A DNA stretch of 30,259 nt from positions 1 to 30,259 of the forward strand of contig DAOTTW010000226.1 of the NCBI GenBank assembly GCA_034437615.1. Reading direction: 5' to 3'. How positions within the stretch are numbered: position 1 is the first letter of the stretch; the number at the start of each line of letters is the position of its first letter. Shown piece by piece: positions 1-9,278 of the stretch. The translations under genes and the position numbers were made by a program. The DNA is from Anaerolineae bacterium (GTDB lineage Bacteria; Chloroflexota; Anaerolineae; Aggregatilineales; Phototrophicaceae). The notes under the pieces are model-generated. The model saw nothing but the letters and a program-made list of their open reading frames with translations, searched no databases and was not told the DNA's origin.

Positions 1-705
1 GTGGTCGTCATTGCTTGCGATCACCCGGCCATCTGGCGCGATCAGGCGCAGTAGCGGGTCCAGCGTGCCGGATGCATCCTGTGCGCTAATCGTAACGCGG
101 CTATCAGCAGCGAGTTCCAGCGCTTCACGGTGGCTGCGCCCCGCCAGCAGATAAACGCGCCGTGTTTCTGCTGTATCATCTGTGCTGATCGTCTCGCTGA
201 GGGTGGCTTGCGTCAGTGTAACCTCGGCTTGCCCTGCGCTGACACCGTTGAAGCTATCCACGCGCAGCGTATACGCCCCTGCTTGCGGCAAATACAGCGC
301 CGTAAGTTCGGCGTCGCGTTGCAATCGGGGTGCTGCGTCTGGTCCCTCTGTATTTGGTTCAATTGGGGGTAGCAGCGTATCGTCGTTGTAGGCCAGCAAT
401 TGACCATCGGGTGCGATAACGGCCAGCGTCGTATCCAACGCGCTATCTTGTGCGGGGGTATTCAGGGCGCGTGTGCGGATGTCGATCAACTCATCACCAG
501 CGGAATCATAGGTCAGCAGGGCGGGCGCTACGGCGCTGATGTCGACAATGCGTGTGCCATCGGGCTGAATGCTCTGCGTATCGCTCGTCTGTGCGTGCAA
601 TGAGCTTAATGAGTGCAACGGGTATAATGGGTGCAATGGGACGAAAAGCAGCAGGAAAAGGCCCAGAAGTGTTATAAAATCGCTTGCATATGGTGATCGG
701 TGCAT
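1..705 (-). CDS. Secreted protein, partial (C-terminus runs off the window start), with two tandem PPC-like (pre-peptidase C-terminal) domains
   Basis: Hand translation of the minus strand from ATG (complement of 703-705) gives MHRSPYASDFITLLGLFLLLFVPLHPLYPLHSLSSLHAQTSD..., a signal peptide with a hydrophobic core and an AQ cleavage site. The frame stays open to position 1 with no Met and no stop, which is why the six-frame ORF track lacks it. Two repeats, ALDTTLAVIAPDGQLLAYNDDT and TLDPLLRLIAPDGRVIASNDDH, fit the PPC-domain D-x-L-x-L-x-x-PDG...NDD pattern. The plus-strand ORFs in this region (130-372, 182-391, 400-603) have no recognisable content. Confidence 0.55.
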   Translation of the reverse strand, partial: MHRSPYASDFITLLGLFLLLFVPLHPLYPLHSLSSLHAQTSDTQSIQPDGTRIVDISAVAPALLTYDSAGDELIDIRTRALNTPAQDSALDTTLAVIAPDGQLLAYNDDTLLPPIEPNTEGPDAAPRLQRDAELTALYLPQAGAYTLRVDSFNGVSAGQAEVTLTQATLSETISTDDTAETRRVYLLAGRSHREALELAADSRVTISAQDASGTLDPLLRLIAPDGRVIASNDDH

Positions 706-2324: not shown

Positions 2325-2418
2325 ACGATGACGATGCGACCTGAATGGTGCTGAAATGCTGACGGGCCGACAAGCTGACAGGCTAACAGGCTAACAAATA
2401 GAAAAGGATCACTCACAC

Positions 2419-6258: not shown

Positions 6259-7668
6259 GTGAACAGCGCAACACTAGCGCCTTATCAGGATTTTGGGATG
6301 TTTAGTAGCCTCAGCAAACGCTTACAGGATGCTTTTGATAGCATCGGTAAGGGCGGAACCGTCACCGAGCAGGATTTGAAGGATGTGATGCGTGAAGTAC
6401 GCATGGCCCTGCTAGAAGCGGATGTCGCCCTGCCTATCGTGAAAGACTTCGTGAAGCAGGTCCGCGAACGCGCCATCGGTGCAGAGGTGCACAAGAAATT
6501 GCGGCCCGGTGAGCAGATCGTCAAGATCGTGCACGAAGAACTAGAAATCGTGCTCGGTGAACCTGGTCGCCTGACGTTTTCGGGCAGCCAGAAGCCGCAT
6601 GTGATTATGATGGTAGGCTTACAGGGGTCTGGTAAAACGACCAGCAGCGCCAAGCTCGCGCTTTACCTGATGAAAGAGATGAACCGCAAGCCGTTCTTGG
6701 TGGCCGCAGATACCTATCGCCCCGCAGCCGTCGACCAATTGGTGACGCTGGCCAAGCAGGTGAACGTCGAATATCACCAGGAAGGCACCAGTGCGACACC
6801 GCCGGAGATTGCGCGGCGTGGCCTGAAAGCGGCGAAAGAAGCCAACGCCGATGTCTGCATCATCGACACGGCAGGCCGCCTGCAAATTGACGAAACGCTG
6901 ATGCAGGAGCTAGAGCGCATCAAGGCCGACACCGAGCCGGCAGAGGTGCTGCTGGTTGCAGATGCCATGACAGGCCAGGAAGCGGTCAACATCGCGAAGG
7001 GCTTTAATGAGCGCGTCGGCATTACGGGCCTGGTGCTCACAAAGGTCGATGGTGATGCGCGTGGCGGTGCGGCGCTGTCCATGCGCCATGTAACGGGCGT
7101 GCCTATCAAATTCATGGGTACAGGCGAAAAAATCAGCATCCAGAACTTCGAGATGTTCCACCCGGACCGCATCGCACAGCGCATCCTGGGTATGGGCGAT
7201 GTGATGTCGCTGATTGAGACCGTCGAGCAGCAATTTGACGAGGAAGAGGCCGAACGCCTGCAAAAGCGCCTGATGGAGAATGAGTTCTCCTTGCAGGATT
7301 TCCTTGAGCAGCTTCAGAAGATCAGAAAGATGGGGTCTATCTCGCGCATTCTGGGCATGGTCCCTGGTATGAGCAAGCTGCAAAACAACGAGGCGTTCAA
7401 CGAGCAAGACATCGAATCGCGCATCAAGCGGGTGGAAGCCATCCTGAACTCTATGACGGCGGAAGAACGGCGGAAGCCCAAGCTGCTCTCGAAGGGGGGT
7501 GCCAGCCGCAAGAAGCGCATCGCGAAGGGTAGCGGCACCGAAGTGCGTGACATCAACGATGTCATCAAGCAATACCGCCAGATGAAGAAGATGATGGACG
7601 GGTTGCGCAAGGGCAAGATGCCCAATATCCCAGGCTTATCACCCAGCGACCTGAACCAATTACAGTAA
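6259..7668 (+). CDS. ffh: Signal recognition particle protein Ffh (SRP54 GTPase)
   Basis: N domain, G domain with GLQGSGKTT P-loop, DTAGR and TKVDGD motifs, and a Met-rich M domain. The true start is probably the internal Met at 6298 (MFSSLSKRLQ..., the typical Ffh N-terminus, with AGGA 8 nt upstream). The 13-codon extension to 6259 is doubtful. Confidence 0.95.
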   Translation: MNSATLAPYQDFGMFSSLSKRLQDAFDSIGKGGTVTEQDLKDVMREVRMALLEADVALPIVKDFVKQVRERAIGAEVHKKLRPGEQIVKIVHEELEIVLGEPGRLTFSGSQKPHVIMMVGLQGSGKTTSSAKLALYLMKEMNRKPFLVAADTYRPAAVDQLVTLAKQVNVEYHQEGTSATPPEIARRGLKAAKEANADVCIIDTAGRLQIDETLMQELERIKADTEPAEVLLVADAMTGQEAVNIAKGFNERVGITGLVLTKVDGDARGGAALSMRHVTGVPIKFMGTGEKISIQNFEMFHPDRIAQRILGMGDVMSLIETVEQQFDEEEAERLQKRLMENEFSLQDFLEQLQKIRKMGSISRILGMVPGMSKLQNNEAFNEQDIESRIKRVEAILNSMTAEERRKPKLLSKGGASRKKRIAKGSGTEVRDINDVIKQYRQMKKMMDGLRKGKMPNIPGLSPSDLNQLQ

Positions 7669-7720
7669 TGTATAGCAACTGACAGCCGAACAAGCAAACA
7701 TAACCAGGAGAACACACAAC

Positions 7721-8170
7721 ATGGTCCGTATTCGTCTAGCCCGCGTTGGCCTGAAGGGTCAGCCGACCTATCGTATTGTCGTGATGGACGGGCGCAAAGC
7801 CCGTGACAGCCGCGTACTGGAGAACATCGGCTTCTACAACCCGCGCACACGCCCACAGACCGAGCGCATTGACGAAGCGCGTGCGCTGTACTGGCTGAGC
7901 GTCGGCGCACAACCGAGTGAATCCGTGCGTGATATTCTGCTACGCCTGGGGACGCTGGAACGCTACGAACGCTATAAGGCCGCCCCGGTGACTGAGCGTG
8001 AAGCCCTGATGCAGCAACTAATTGAAGAAGGCCAAGCGGCAGCACAGGAACGCGAAGAGCCGCCTACACGCACCAATTACCCGGCCCCTGCTGCTGGTGA
8101 ATCCAAGATCAAGGCGCGTGAAGCCGCCCGTCAGCAAGCAGAAGCCGCCGCCGAGGGCGCAGAAGGCTAG
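7721..8170 (+). CDS. rpsP: 30S ribosomal protein S16 with Ala/Glu/Gln-rich C-terminal extension
   Basis: MVRIRLARVGLKGQPTYRIVVMDGRKARDSRVLENIGFYNPRT... is the canonical S16 N-terminus. The length (149 aa) exceeds a typical S16 because of a charged low-complexity tail. Confidence 0.9.
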   Translation: MVRIRLARVGLKGQPTYRIVVMDGRKARDSRVLENIGFYNPRTRPQTERIDEARALYWLSVGAQPSESVRDILLRLGTLERYERYKAAPVTEREALMQQLIEEGQAAAQEREEPPTRTNYPAPAAGESKIKAREAARQQAEAAAEGAEG

Positions 8171-8189
8171 GGCCTAAAATATCAATTTG

Positions 8190-8215
8190 CAGGGGCGCTG
8201 CATTGCGCCCCTACA
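8190..8215 (+). terminator. REP-like GC-rich hairpin downstream of rpsP (GCAGGGGCGC-tgcatt-GCGCCCCTAC)
   Basis: 7-bp perfect stem GGGGCGC/GCGCCCC with a TGCATT loop, flanked by a GCAGG head and a CCTAC tail. No U-tract. A near-copy (GGGCGC-gatgcatt-GCGCCC) is at 19201-19220. Confidence 0.45.
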
Positions 8216-8220
8216 GCGGG

Positions 8221-8306
8221 TTTACATCTTACATCCTTGCATCTTTACATCTTGCATCCTTATATCCTTGCATCTTTACATCTTTACATCTTTACATCCT
8301 TGCATC
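8221..8306 (+). repeat. Tandem array of about 11 copies of an 8-bp unit (consensus TTACATCT / TTGCATCC)
   Basis: Read directly: TTTACATC TTACATCC TTGCATCT TTACATCT TGCATCC TTATATCC TTGCATCT TTACATCT TTACATCT TTACATCC TTGCATCC. It lies between rpsP and the KH-protein gene promoter. The spurious ORF 8187-8582 overlaps it. Confidence 0.85.
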
Positions 8307-8363
8307 CGACAAAGCCGACACGTCTACGCCTGCTTCGTCCTTCATCTCGATTTAACTGTAATG

Positions 8364-8369
8364 TATAAT
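8364..8369 (+). promoter_or_regulatory. Candidate -10 box TATAAT for the KH-domain gene
   Basis: TGTAATGTATAATCGG lies 30-35 nt upstream of the 8404 ATG. A weak -35-like TTCATC sits 17 nt upstream. Confidence 0.3.
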
Positions 8370-8400
8370 CGGCTTAAAGCGATATGGAAGCGAGCAAGGT

Positions 8401-8694
8401 GTGATGAGCGACGAACAAGACCAAACCACGACGCAACAAATCCAGGGTCAAGCAGAAGCCAGCGAACAAGCGCTGATCCAATACATCGCAGAAAACCTCG
8501 TCAACGACCCGACGAAAGTACATGTGGATTATCGGCAAGCAGGCCGTACAACGGTGCTGGAACTGCACGTCGCGGCGAATGACATGGGCCGCGTGATCGG
8601 CAAGAGTGGCCGCGTCGCGAACGCCATGCGCTCGTTGTTGCGCGTCATGTCGGACCGGGAACGTGGTGAGCGTATTGTGCTCGAAATCGAGTAA
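8401..8694 (+). CDS. KH-domain RNA-binding protein (YlqC/UPF0109 family)
   Basis: C-terminal KH motif VIGKSGRVANAMRSLLRV. Conserved position between rpsP and rimM. The ORF track starts at GTG 8401. ATG 8404 is equally plausible, and RBS AAGGTG precedes it. Confidence 0.85.
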   Translation: MMSDEQDQTTTQQIQGQAEASEQALIQYIAENLVNDPTKVHVDYRQAGRTTVLELHVAANDMGRVIGKSGRVANAMRSLLRVMSDRERGERIVLEIE

Positions 8695-8729
8695 GATAAG
8701 GGCACTGCGCAATCAGCAACGAGGCCGAC

Positions 8730-9278
8730 ATGACCACCGAACAACGCGAAGAACCGCAATTTCTGCTACTGGGTAAGCTGCTGCGCCCGCATGGGGTACG
8801 CGGTGAGATGCGTATGAGCATCCTCACGGATTACCCGGAACGGCTCGCAGAGCTTGATGTGGTTTACCTGGGGACATCCCCACAGCAGAAAAACCCCAAA
8901 CCTTATGAAATCGACACGCTGCGTTTCCATAAGCAATACGCACTGATTAAATTCACCGAGACAACAGAGCGCAACGAGGCCGACCTGCTGCGTGGCCTGA
9001 TGGTGATGATCGACATCGCCAACGCCGTGCCGCTAGAAGAAGATGAATTCTATCTGTATGAATTGATCGGCCTACAGGTGCAAACCGAGGATGGCGCGAT
9101 CATCGGCACCATACAAAGCGTGATGGAGACGGGCGCAAACGACGTGTATGTGCTGCGTAGCCCACAGGGTAAGGAAATATTGGTGCCAGCCCACGACGAA
9201 ACCCTGCTTGATGTCGATACTGATAGCGGCATCGTGCTGATGAAGCTCCCCGATGGCTTGCTCTCCGACGACAGCTAA
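8730..9278 (+). CDS. rimM: Ribosome maturation factor RimM
   Basis: LLLGKLLRPHGVRGEMRM N-terminal RimM beta-barrel signature and a PRC-barrel-like C-terminus. Operon context ffh-rpsP-KH-rimM. Confidence 0.9.
   Translation: MTTEQREEPQFLLLGKLLRPHGVRGEMRMSILTDYPERLAELDVVYLGTSPQQKNPKPYEIDTLRFHKQYALIKFTETTERNEADLLRGLMVMIDIANAVPLEEDEFYLYELIGLQVQTEDGAIIGTIQSVMETGANDVYVLRSPQGKEILVPAHDETLLDVDTDSGIVLMKLPDGLLSDDS

What the first reader, a model, noticed from the sequence alone, without database searches (positions are those of the whole stretch)
8221..8306. About 11-unit tandem array of the 8-bp motif TTACATCT between rpsP and the KH-protein gene promoter
A near-perfect 8-bp tandem repeat (TTACATCT/TTGCATCC, about 11 units, one 7-bp unit) lies inside the conserved ffh-rpsP-KH-rimM ribosomal cluster. 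It follows a hairpin terminator directly and sits about 58 nt upstream of a TATAAT box. Each unit contains a -35-like hexamer (TTTACA or TTGCAT), so the array is a phased series of sigma-70-like -35 half-sites. Short tandem repeats of this kind are unstable by slipped-strand mispairing. The 8-bp period is off the helical repeat. Possibilities include copy-number-variable modulation of read-through from rpsP into the KH-rimM genes, a binding array for a regulator, or an RNA element recognised by the KH protein itself if transcribed.
Basis: seen in the sequence. Interest (0 to 1): 0.5.

Follow-up and report, generated by a model that had tools for sequence, protein, structure and literature searches.

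The report
Hypervariable 8-bp repeat after rpsP
A real, fast-changing 8-base tandem repeat lies in a non-coding spacer between two ribosome-related genes of an uncultured mat bacterium; it behaves like an ordinary slippage-prone repeat, and no regulatory role is shown.

Summary
The array is real. Window 8221-8307 holds 11 head-to-tail units of TTRCATCY, two of them 7 nt long, between rpsP and a khpA-type KH gene of an uncultured Anaerolineae (Chloroflexota) bacterium from microbial mats.

It is hypervariable. Population variants whose flanks are 99.7-99.9% identical and align without gaps over 18 kb carry 11, 12, 11 (different unit order) or 14 units. The array is the only indel in those 18 kb, and two assemblies break contigs inside it.

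It is lineage-specific. The nearest relatives (RimM 62-68% identical) have rpsP-khpA spacers of 4-47 nt and no array.

The phased -35 idea fails: no -10 lies at a usable distance, and the array-to-TATAAT distance changes by 7-24 bp between strains. No KhpA sequence motif is known.

Best reading: a slipped-strand VNTR of the known class of long simple sequence repeats with 5-11 nt units, probably near-neutral.

Its sense RNA would be unstructured and the most pyrimidine-rich, G-poor 87-nt stretch in the 30-kb window. It therefore resembles a Rho loading site. This is compatible with the spacer separating ffh-rpsP from a separately promoted khpA-rimM unit, but that is inferred, not shown.

Two look-alikes were seen: complementarity to the khpA ribosome-binding region, and CsrA-site-like units on the minus strand. 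Both are at or near chance level.

The parts
6298..7668 (+). ffh (SRP54 GTPase), the upstream gene of the cluster
   Evidence: Called as a 456-aa gene with SRP54_N/SRP54/SRP_SPB domains in identical strains
7721..8170 (+). rpsP (ribosomal protein S16, 149 aa, with a C-terminal extension)
   Evidence: Pfam Ribosomal_S16, E 1e-22, residues 8-66; ORF list
8188..8215 (+). GC-rich hairpin (core stem 8192-8198 / 8205-8211, loop TGCATT) 18 nt after the rpsP stop codon. It has no U-tract on the + strand
   Evidence: Fold -22.1 kcal/mol, z -3.5. The scanner lists it as terminator-like only on the - strand. The strain variant C8206T keeps a G.U pair in + strand RNA only
8221..8307 (+). Octanucleotide tandem array, 11 units of TTRCATCY. 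It is a hypervariable VNTR, and its sense RNA would be unstructured and pyrimidine-rich
   Evidence: TRF; motif enrichment; alleles of 11-14 units; only indel in 18 kb; A18 C26 G4 T39; -4 kcal/mol fold; most pyrimidine-rich and most G-poor 87-nt window of either strand
8341..8369 (+). Promoter-like TTCATC-17 nt-TATAAT in front of khpA. The TTCATC looks like a degenerate array unit
   Evidence: Read from the sequence. It falls below the scanner's threshold of 4 of 6 matches for the -35 hexamer. It is identical in all strains. Function is inferred
8379..8412 (+). khpA translation initiation region (GCAAGG ... GUGAUG), partly complementary to array units (CCUUGC, CAUC)
   Evidence: Duplex with array 8236-8272 is -27.6 kcal/mol, the best of 22 ribosome-binding regions. 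However, 9/500 shuffles and 110/1500 column-permuted arrays do as well
8404..8694 (+). khpA-type KH-domain protein gene (96 aa, with a 22-aa N-terminal extension absent from relatives)
   Evidence: Pfam KH_KhpA-B, E 3e-19, residues 23-95; relatives are 77-79 aa
8730..9278 (+). rimM (16S rRNA processing protein)
   Evidence: Pfam RimM/PRC domains in the called gene; homologue search

Best explanation
The array is a lineage-specific, slippage-driven octanucleotide VNTR. It belongs to the known class of long simple sequence repeats with 5-11 nt units.

It lies in a non-coding spacer that exists only in this Anaerolineae species. In relatives rpsP and khpA are 4-47 nt apart. Here the junction has been rebuilt into 233-256 nt made of a hairpin, the array, and about 97 nt of unique sequence with a TATAAT box.

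Units are gained, lost and reshuffled by slipped-strand mispairing far faster than the flanks accumulate substitutions. These changes are probably near-neutral.

The array has no sequence-specific role as -35 sites or as a protein-binding array. Any physiological effect is a bulk one. The transcribed sense strand would be an untranslated, unstructured, C>G, pyrimidine-rich RNA of about 90-110 nt. That is the generic substrate on which Rho loads, so it would tend to uncouple ffh-rpsP transcription from khpA-rimM, which has its own promoter-like site.

Shown: the repeat, its hypervariability, its absence from relatives, and its composition and lack of structure. Inferred: slippage as the mechanism, neutrality, and the Rho effect.
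For: - Structure and non-randomness are shown.
- Four complete alleles exist: 11 units/89 nt; 12/96, found in two samples; 11 in another order/88; and 14/112. A fifth partial allele is also seen.
- Flanks align without gaps over 8218 + 9840 nt at 99.72-99.83% identity, so the array is the only indel locus.
- A 7-nt length difference between alleles excludes coding.
- The MAG GCA_964530125.1 and a Logan assembly both break contigs inside the array.
- Twenty-eight Chloroflexota loci from species representatives lack it, as do the three closest RimM relatives, including Phototrophicus methaneseepsis. Their spacers are mostly a few to about 140 nt, and 4, 43 and 47 nt in the three closest.
- The same window has a second degenerate 8-bp intergenic array at 2349-2396.
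- The same octamer family forms arrays in more than 120 unrelated metagenome contigs with GC 26-66%. Those contigs carry 11.8 other 7-9 bp arrays per 100 kb, against 2.6 in control loci. This points to repeat-prone genomes rather than a special motif.
- The class is described by Mrazek et al. 2007, as summarised in PMC4679880.
- Composition is C26/G4 with 75% pyrimidine, the extreme of 60,346 windows. The array alone folds at -4 kcal/mol.
- Published Rut features are a C>G bias, little structure and 60-90 nt (PMC12360218). Pyrimidine richness is sufficient for Rho termination in B. subtilis (PMC13323073).
Against: - All four complete alleles stay within 86-110 nt, and none has collapsed to a few units. 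This could mean a minimum length is selected, but the sample is only five closely related complete sequences.
- The array is more complementary to the khpA ribosome-binding region than to any of 21 other start regions in the window.
- Neutrality cannot be demonstrated from sequence.
- No transcript data are available.
- Whether this organism encodes Rho could not be checked.
Confidence: 0.6

Rival explanations
1. Selected Rho-loading (Rut-like) platform. Together with the hairpin, the array forms the terminator of the ffh-rpsP unit. Rho loads on the C>G unstructured repeat RNA and stops read-through before the khpA promoter. Repeat number only needs to stay above about 60-90 nt, which tolerates slippage.
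For: The array is the most pyrimidine-rich and G-poor 87-nt window of either strand, and its C-G excess is in the top 0.3%. It is unstructured and untranslated. All alleles are 86-110 nt, at or above the 60-90 nt optimum, and YC dinucleotides occur in every unit (PMC12360218). The hairpin lacks a U-tract, so it is unlikely to terminate alone. A TATAAT box follows, which relatives with 4-47 nt spacers have no room for.
Against: Rho could not be looked for in this genome. Rut sites are notoriously non-specific, so the match is generic. The 8-nt period does not match the spacing of about 9-10 nt per Rho subunit. No relative has anything similar, so there is no conservation signal, and only five closely related sequences support the length argument.
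Confidence: 0.2
2. Multivalent anti-ribosome-binding-site element. In read-through transcripts, CCUUGC/CAUC units pair with the khpA Shine-Dalgarno and start region (GCAAGG...GAUG) and repress translation. Transcripts from the proximal promoter lack the array and are translated. Unit number tunes the effect.
For: The MFE and centroid folds of 8160-8410 pair 8239-8275 with 8380-8409. The duplex is -27.6 kcal/mol, the best of 22 start regions in the window, with the next at -23.4 and a median near -10. Inverted partial copies accompany similar arrays in other contigs (L083, L061, L123).
Against: The signal is marginal: 9/500 mononucleotide shuffles and 110/1500 (7%) column-permuted arrays pair as well, and 65/1500 do for the core region. 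The whole-region fold has z -1.9. Any pyrimidine tract pairs with a purine-rich ribosome-binding region. No covariation test is possible because the flanks are invariant.
Confidence: 0.07
3. Minus-strand small RNA resembling a CsrA/RsmA sponge. Read on the - strand the units are CAAGGAUG / UAAGGAUG, close to the CsrA SELEX core CARGGAUG (recalled from memory). They are followed by the GC hairpin and a U-rich tail.
For: The hairpin scores as terminator-like only on the - strand, with 11 pairs and tail AATTGATATT. There are 5-8 GGA motifs per allele. The only Rfam match in e-value mode is RsmY on the - strand, 8191-8301.
Against: The RsmY score is 12.3 bits against a gathering score of 57, with E 0.9, which is chance level. 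No promoter-like site lies on the - strand to the right of the array (and reading of 8308-8420). About half of the units are AGA rather than GGA. The hairpin variant C8206T breaks a pair in - strand RNA but not in + strand RNA. CsrA is found in only about 30% of genomes (PMC13443453) and could not be checked here.
Confidence: 0.03
4. DNA-level regulatory array. The units would be phased -35 half-sites, or an array of binding sites for a transcription factor, that modulate the khpA promoter with copy number.
For: TTTACA (5 of 6 consensus positions) and TTGCAT (3 of 6) recur in each unit. The array lies upstream of a TATAAT box.
Against: No -35/-10 pair is found. Given the 8-bp period, the hexamer 17 bp after each TTTACA is again unit sequence and not -10-like. 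The array ends 56 bp before TATAAT, and this distance and the helical phase change by 7, 8 or 24 bp among strains. An 8-bp period puts successive sites on different helix faces. The array is absent from all relatives.
Confidence: 0.03
5. Autoregulatory RNA target of the KhpA protein encoded just downstream.
For: Position only: the array lies immediately upstream of khpA and would be single-stranded RNA, the kind of ligand KH domains bind.
Against: KhpA/KhpB bind many sequences with no defined motif (PMC12408800, PMC13015501). No relative's khpA has such an element. The array would be outside the transcript made from the proximal promoter-like site.
Confidence: 0.03

Closest known systems
Long simple sequence repeats with 5-11 nt units in prokaryotes (Mrazek, Guo & Shah 2007, as summarised in PMC4679880)
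   Same: Head-to-tail repeats of a 5-11 nt unit, longer than chance, in non-coding DNA of a free-living bacterium. Distribution across lineages is sporadic, slippage is the presumed origin, and the function is unknown.
   Different: Heptamers are the commonest unit in that survey, whereas this unit is an octamer. The genome-wide abundance of such repeats in this organism could not be measured, because only about 32 kb was seen.
VNTR / MLVA loci of bacteria
   Same: Copy number and unit order differ between otherwise nearly identical strains, and the locus is the only indel in 18 kb.
   Different: Classical typing VNTRs are known from cultured pathogens. This one is in an uncultured mat Anaerolineae and was seen only in metagenome assemblies.
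Intergenic TAACTGA heptamer repeats of Beggiatoaceae, Cyanobacteria and Bacteroidetes (MacGregor 2015, PMC4679880) and cyanobacterial STRR heptamers
   Same: Short tandem repeats inside ribosomal-protein operons of filamentous mat bacteria. They lie between genes rather than in promoters, and a post-transcriptional role has been suggested but not shown.
   Different: The TAACTGA sets are short (2-6 copies), lie within a few nucleotides of start codons and recur at about 170 sites per genome. Here a single 11-14-unit array lies 97 nt from the start codon, with a different motif and an 8-nt unit.
Phase-variation SSRs (contingency loci), for example the AGAT repeats in the uspA2 5' UTR of Moraxella catarrhalis (cited in PMC4679880)
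   Same: A strain-variable repeat number upstream of a gene, generated by slippage.
   Different: Those repeats have 1-5 nt units, sit in a promoter spacer, 5' UTR or ORF of surface or virulence genes, and have measured expression effects. This one is an 8-nt unit next to housekeeping genes, outside any -35/-10 spacer, with no measured effect.
Rho utilisation (Rut) sites
   Same: C>G bias, little structure, about 60-90 nt or more, untranslated, and rich in YC dinucleotides.
   Different: Rut sites are not tandem repeats and are defined functionally. Neither Rho nor termination could be tested here.
CsrB/RsmY/RsmZ sponge RNAs
   Same: The minus strand carries 5-8 GGA motifs in a CAAGGAUG context, followed by a GC hairpin.
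   Different: The Rfam RsmY score is far below threshold (12.3 against 57 bits). No promoter was found, the GGA motifs are not in hairpin loops, and CsrA is unverified in this lineage.

Membership tests
Tandem repeat / VNTR (LSSR with 5-11 nt unit) | Head-to-tail copies of one short unit, more than chance gives | tested here: met
   TRF gives period 8, 11.0 copies, score 95. Ten motif matches lie in 87 nt, against 3.9 expected in the whole 30 kb
Tandem repeat / VNTR (LSSR with 5-11 nt unit) | Copy number is polymorphic between closely related strains | tested here: met
   Alleles of 11, 12, 11 (rearranged) and 14 units, plus a fifth partial allele; flanks are 99.7-99.9% identical and free of gaps
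Tandem repeat / VNTR (LSSR with 5-11 nt unit) | Non-coding location | tested here: met
   It lies between the rpsP stop at 8170 and the khpA ATG at 8404. A 7-nt indel between alleles is incompatible with a reading frame
Contingency locus (phase-variable SSR) | The repeat lies in a -35/-10 spacer, or inside an ORF or 5' UTR, so that unit number switches expression | tested here: not met
   The array ends 56 bp upstream of the only good -10 and 97 nt upstream of the start codon. No -35/-10 pair spans it
Sigma-70 promoter(s) within the array | A -35-like hexamer followed at 16-18 bp by a -10-like hexamer | tested here: not met
   The scan of 7500-9000 finds 0 sites on both strands. By the 8-bp period, the hexamer 17 bp downstream of TTTACA is again unit sequence
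Intrinsic (Rho-independent) terminator after rpsP | A stable GC-rich hairpin | tested here: met
   -22.1 kcal/mol, z -3.5
Intrinsic (Rho-independent) terminator after rpsP | A U-tract directly after the stem on the transcribed (+) strand | tested here: not met
   The stem is followed by ACAGCGGGUUUACA. The scanner accepts the site only on the - strand
Rut site / Rho-dependent terminator | A C>G-biased, weakly structured RNA of about 60-90 nt, untranslated | tested here: met
   C26/G4; the extreme of 60,346 windows for pyrimidine content and low G; fold -4 kcal/mol; criteria from PMC12360218
Rut site / Rho-dependent terminator | The organism encodes Rho, and transcripts end downstream in a Rho-dependent way | not testable with these tools
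   Only about 32 kb of the genome is accessible, and no transcript data are available
CsrB/RsmY-type sponge RNA (Rfam CL00106) | Match to a family covariance model at the gathering score | tested here: not met
   RsmY 12.3 bits against 57, E 0.9
CsrB/RsmY-type sponge RNA (Rfam CL00106) | Own promoter, and a cognate CsrA protein in the genome | tested here: inconclusive
   No promoter-like site lies on the - strand. Presence of csrA cannot be tested, and only about 30% of genomes have it (PMC13443453)
Conserved cis-regulatory element of the rpsP-khpA-rimM operon | Present in the orthologous spacers of related species | tested here: not met
   It is absent from the Chloroflexota loci L004-L031 and from L178, L179 and L181, whose spacers are 4-47 nt. 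There is no Rfam family match

The most novel reading that the evidence does not exclude
The repeat is a functional RNA element whose unit number, reset by slippage, tunes how strongly khpA-rimM expression is coupled to rpsP. It would act either by loading Rho on the repeat RNA or by pairing its CCUUGC/CAUC units with the khpA Shine-Dalgarno and start region. That would make it a copy-number 'rheostat' inside a ribosome-biogenesis operon of a free-living bacterium. A still more exotic variant is a minus-strand CsrA-sponge-like RNA built from CAAGGAUG units.
Probability: 0.12. Interest if true: 0.6.

Novelty: new member of a known kind. Interest (0 to 1): 0.25.

Why it matters
As it stands, this is a clean example of a hypermutable octanucleotide VNTR in an uncultured Anaerolineae population. 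It is useful as a strain marker for these mat organisms. It also explains why assemblies of this species break between rpsP and khpA.

It shows that a normally tightly packed junction in a ribosome-biogenesis operon can be remodelled in one lineage into a hairpin, a repeat and a new promoter-like site.

If the repeat were shown to set read-through or translation of khpA-rimM according to unit number, it would extend slippage-based tuning from pathogen surface genes to housekeeping operons of environmental bacteria. The present evidence does not show that.

Tried and rejected
1. Rfam at gathering thresholds over the whole window gave nothing. E-value mode over 8100-8450 gave only a chance-level RsmY match on the minus strand.

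2. The promoter scan found no -35/-10 pair in or near the array. The phased -35 idea is rejected.

3. The orthologous spacers of 28 Chloroflexota species representatives and the three closest RimM relatives contain no array. No relative lies between 68% and 100% RimM identity, so genus-level conservation cannot be assessed.

4. A metagenome scan for 3.5 units of the motif returned more than 120 contigs of unrelated organisms (GC 26-66%). None was recognisably from this lineage, so it did not show whether the genome has further copies. A viral scan gave 4 hits and was not pursued.

5. I compared the orientation of those arrays with crudely called neighbouring ORFs. The left neighbour was on the same strand in 15 loci and on the opposite strand in 21. 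Neighbour pairs were 8 convergent, 13 tandem and 2 divergent. The ORF caller is noisy because arrays create spurious ORFs, so there is no consistent sense orientation.

6. The complementarity between the array and the khpA ribosome-binding region looked striking (best of 22). It is only marginal against shuffled and column-permuted arrays.

7. Two contig look-ups were wasted: one had no exact product on record and one used a wrong minus-strand coordinate.

8. The literature gave no KhpA/KhpB binding motif and no statement on Rho or CsrA in Chloroflexota.

Full report
**Observation.** The sequence at 8221-8307 is a head-to-tail array of 11 units of TTRCATCY. In order they are TTACATC, TTACATCC, TTGCATCT, TTACATC, TTGCATCC, TTATATCC, TTGCATCT, TTACATCT, TTACATCT, TTACATCC, TTGCATCC. 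TRF reports period 8, 11.0 copies, 80% matches and score 95. Ten of the 14 window matches to TTRCATCY are in the array, against 3.9 +/- 2.3 expected in shuffles of the whole window. Variation between units is almost entirely transitions at two positions (A/G at position 3, C/T at position 8). Two units are 7 nt long.

**Context.** The surrounding genes are ffh (6298-7668), rpsP (7721-8170, 149 aa), a KhpA-type KH protein (8404-8694, 96 aa), rimM (8730-9278) and dnaG. The assignments rest on Pfam hits to the called genes of identical strains and on my own scan.

- Eighteen nucleotides after the rpsP stop there is a stable GC hairpin (-22.1 kcal/mol, z -3.5). It has no U-tract on the + strand, and the scanner lists it as terminator-like only on the - strand.
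- The array begins 8-9 nt after the stem.
- Fifty-six nucleotides after the array comes TTCATC-17 nt-TATAAT (8341-8369), and the khpA ATG is 35 nt further on.

**Organism.** rpsP-based loci from species representatives place the window in Anaerolineae (Chloroflexota). The best representative is only 64% identical. Exact-protein look-ups find the same genes in microbial-mat metagenomes (ENA PRJEB25599 assemblies ERZ922772 and ERZ922773, JGI 3300012009, a Logan run) and in the MAG GCA_964530125.1.

**Hypervariability.** Five complete copies of the spacer give four alleles:

| Source | Units | Length (nt) | Note |
|---|---|---|---|
| window | 11 | 89 | |
| L052 and L176 | 12 | 96 | same as the window plus one TTACATC |
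| L053 | 11 | 88 | different unit order |
| L175/L001 | 14 | 112 | |

A truncated Logan contig (L054) ends with a sequence that matches none of these, so it is a fifth allele.

Outside the array, the window aligns to L175 and L176 without a single gap over 8218 + 9840 nt, at 99.72% and 99.83% identity (BLAST). The array is therefore the only indel locus in 18 kb, and it has also been internally reshuffled.

The MAG has one contig that ends 10 nt into the array and another that starts just before it. The Logan assembly also breaks on both sides. This fits co-existing alleles within samples. The 7-nt difference between alleles excludes a coding role for the spurious ORFs that run through the array.

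**Relatives.** In 28 Chloroflexota loci the KH gene follows rpsP after a few to about 140 nt, and TRF finds no array. A protein search with RimM finds nothing between 100% and 68% identity. The three closest relatives are a 68% Logan contig, Phototrophicus methaneseepsis CP062983 at 65%, and a 62% lineage seen in 24 contigs. Their rpsP-khpA spacers are 4, 43 and 47 nt, their KhpA is 77-79 aa, and they have no repeat. The whole 233-256-nt spacer (hairpin, array, unique segment with TATAAT) and the 22-aa N-terminal extension of KhpA are thus innovations of this species-level lineage.

**Is the motif special?**
- In the 80 contigs returned, the arrays have a median of 6 copies, and 14 have at least 10.
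- The same contigs hold 49 other 7-9-bp arrays of unrelated motifs. That is 11.8 per 100 kb, against 2.6 per 100 kb in 53 control loci, where they are concentrated in three Acidobacteriota contigs.
- Orientation relative to crudely called neighbouring ORFs is mixed.
- The window itself has a second degenerate 8-bp intergenic array at 2349-2396 and a 9/18-bp repeat at 595-640. These differ between strains only by substitutions.

Together this points to repeat-prone genomes and a generic slippage process rather than a motif with a dedicated reader. It matches the published class of long simple sequence repeats with 5-11 nt units, found sporadically in free-living bacteria, mostly non-coding and of unknown function (Mrazek et al. 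2007, as summarised in PMC4679880).

- *Phased -35 sites.* The hexamers exist, but there is no -10 at 16-18 bp. The good TATAAT is 56 bp away, and that distance changes by 7, 8 or 24 bp between strains. This is rejected.
- *Regulator array.* There is no conservation, the spacing is variable, and the 8-bp period is off the helical repeat. This is unlikely.
- *KH-protein target.* Published work finds broad, motif-less binding by KhpA/KhpB (PMC12408800, PMC13015501). No relative has such an element. This is unsupported and untestable here.
- *Instability by slippage.* This is supported by the alleles.

**What the array would do if transcribed.**
- The sense strand is A18 C26 G4 T39.
- It is the most pyrimidine-rich (75%) and most G-poor 87-nt window on either strand of the 30-kb window. 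Its C-G excess is in the top 0.3%. Genes in the window average 52% purine on the sense strand.
- It is essentially unstructured (-4 kcal/mol) and untranslated.

These are the generic features of Rho loading sites: a C>G bias, little structure and an optimum of 60-90 nt (PMC12360218). Pyrimidine richness suffices to cause Rho termination in B. subtilis (PMC13323073). All alleles are 86-110 nt.

A reasonable but inferred consequence is that read-through from rpsP is curtailed in the spacer and that khpA-rimM relies on the TATAAT promoter-like site. I could not check whether the organism has Rho, and there are no transcript data.

**Two look-alikes.**
- *Pairing with the khpA start region.* The array pairs with the khpA translation initiation region in the MFE and centroid folds. 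The duplex energy of -27.6 kcal/mol is the best among 22 start regions. However, 9/500 shuffles and 7% of column-permuted arrays do as well, so this is marginal.
- *CsrA-site-like units on the minus strand.* On the minus strand the units read CAAGGAUG, close to the CsrA SELEX core as I recall it, and the hairpin looks terminator-like on that strand. The only Rfam e-value hit is RsmY at 12.3 bits against a gathering score of 57, with E 0.9. There is no minus-strand promoter-like site, half of the units lack GGA, and the hairpin variant C8206T preserves pairing only in + strand RNA. I treat this as a chance resemblance, driven by the similarity between Shine-Dalgarno and CsrA sites.

**Verdict.** The element is best filed as a new example of a known kind: a hypermutable octanucleotide VNTR/LSSR, lineage-specific and probably near-neutral. 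It has a plausible but unproven bulk-RNA effect (Rho loading) on the coupling between rpsP and khpA-rimM. Sequence-specific regulatory readings are not supported. Interest is modest.

Noticed in passing
window 2349-2396: A second degenerate 8-bp tandem array (GCTGAAAT GCTGACGG GCCGACAA GCTGACAG GCTAACAG GCTAACA) ends 23 nt upstream of the ATG of a LysM-domain protein gene (2419). Strains differ by one G/A substitution and not in length.
   Followed up: partly
window 595-640: An intergenic 9/18-bp repeat (GTGCAATGAGCTTAATGA-like, 2.4-3.7 copies). Strain L175 has two substitutions here, against about 0.3% divergence elsewhere.
   Followed up: partly
window 8404-8470: KhpA here has a 22-residue Q/E/T-rich N-terminal extension (96 aa in total). 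The closest relatives have 77-79 aa. The extension may have been recruited from former spacer sequence when the junction was remodelled.
   Followed up: partly
L019 1644-3467: In a Chloroflexota MAG, the ORF that starts as ribosomal protein S16 (Pfam domain at residues 8-66) continues for 607 codons. The tail of about 520 aa is not low-complexity and has no Pfam match. This could be a fusion, a frameshift or an assembly artefact. S16 C-terminal extensions range from about 85 to 212 aa in other Anaerolineae loci.
   Followed up: partly
L044 5893-5980; L037 121-211: Two Acidobacteriota MAG loci carry inverted pairs of heptamer arrays immediately upstream of the rpsP start codon: (AGTTTTC)n, a loop, then (ACTGAAA)n in L044, and (GTGATAA)n then (CTTATCA)n in L037. 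These would form long imperfect hairpins in the leader. The same contigs hold several other heptamer arrays.
   Followed up: partly
L083 591-751; also L061 491-572, L123 711-793: Metagenome contigs with the same octamer family show an array followed by a partial inverted copy. L083 (GC 0.59) has a perfect (GGATGCAA)14 followed by TTGCATCGCTGCATCTCTGTATCCTTGCATCC. This array-plus-inverted-remnant layout is recurrent.
   Followed up: no
L013 (DATGQJ010000688.1): This contig is labelled as an Oceanobacillus sp. MAG, but it carries an Anaerolineae-type S16 with a C-terminal extension directly followed by khpA. It is probably mis-binned.
   Followed up: no
L002/L177 end and L053 start (GCA_964530125.1 contigs 173 and 2); L003 and L054 (Logan ERR1878617): Two independent assemblies break exactly at the array, with about 55 nt of overlap between the two MAG contigs. 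The two MAG contigs can therefore be joined across rpsP-khpA.
   Followed up: yes
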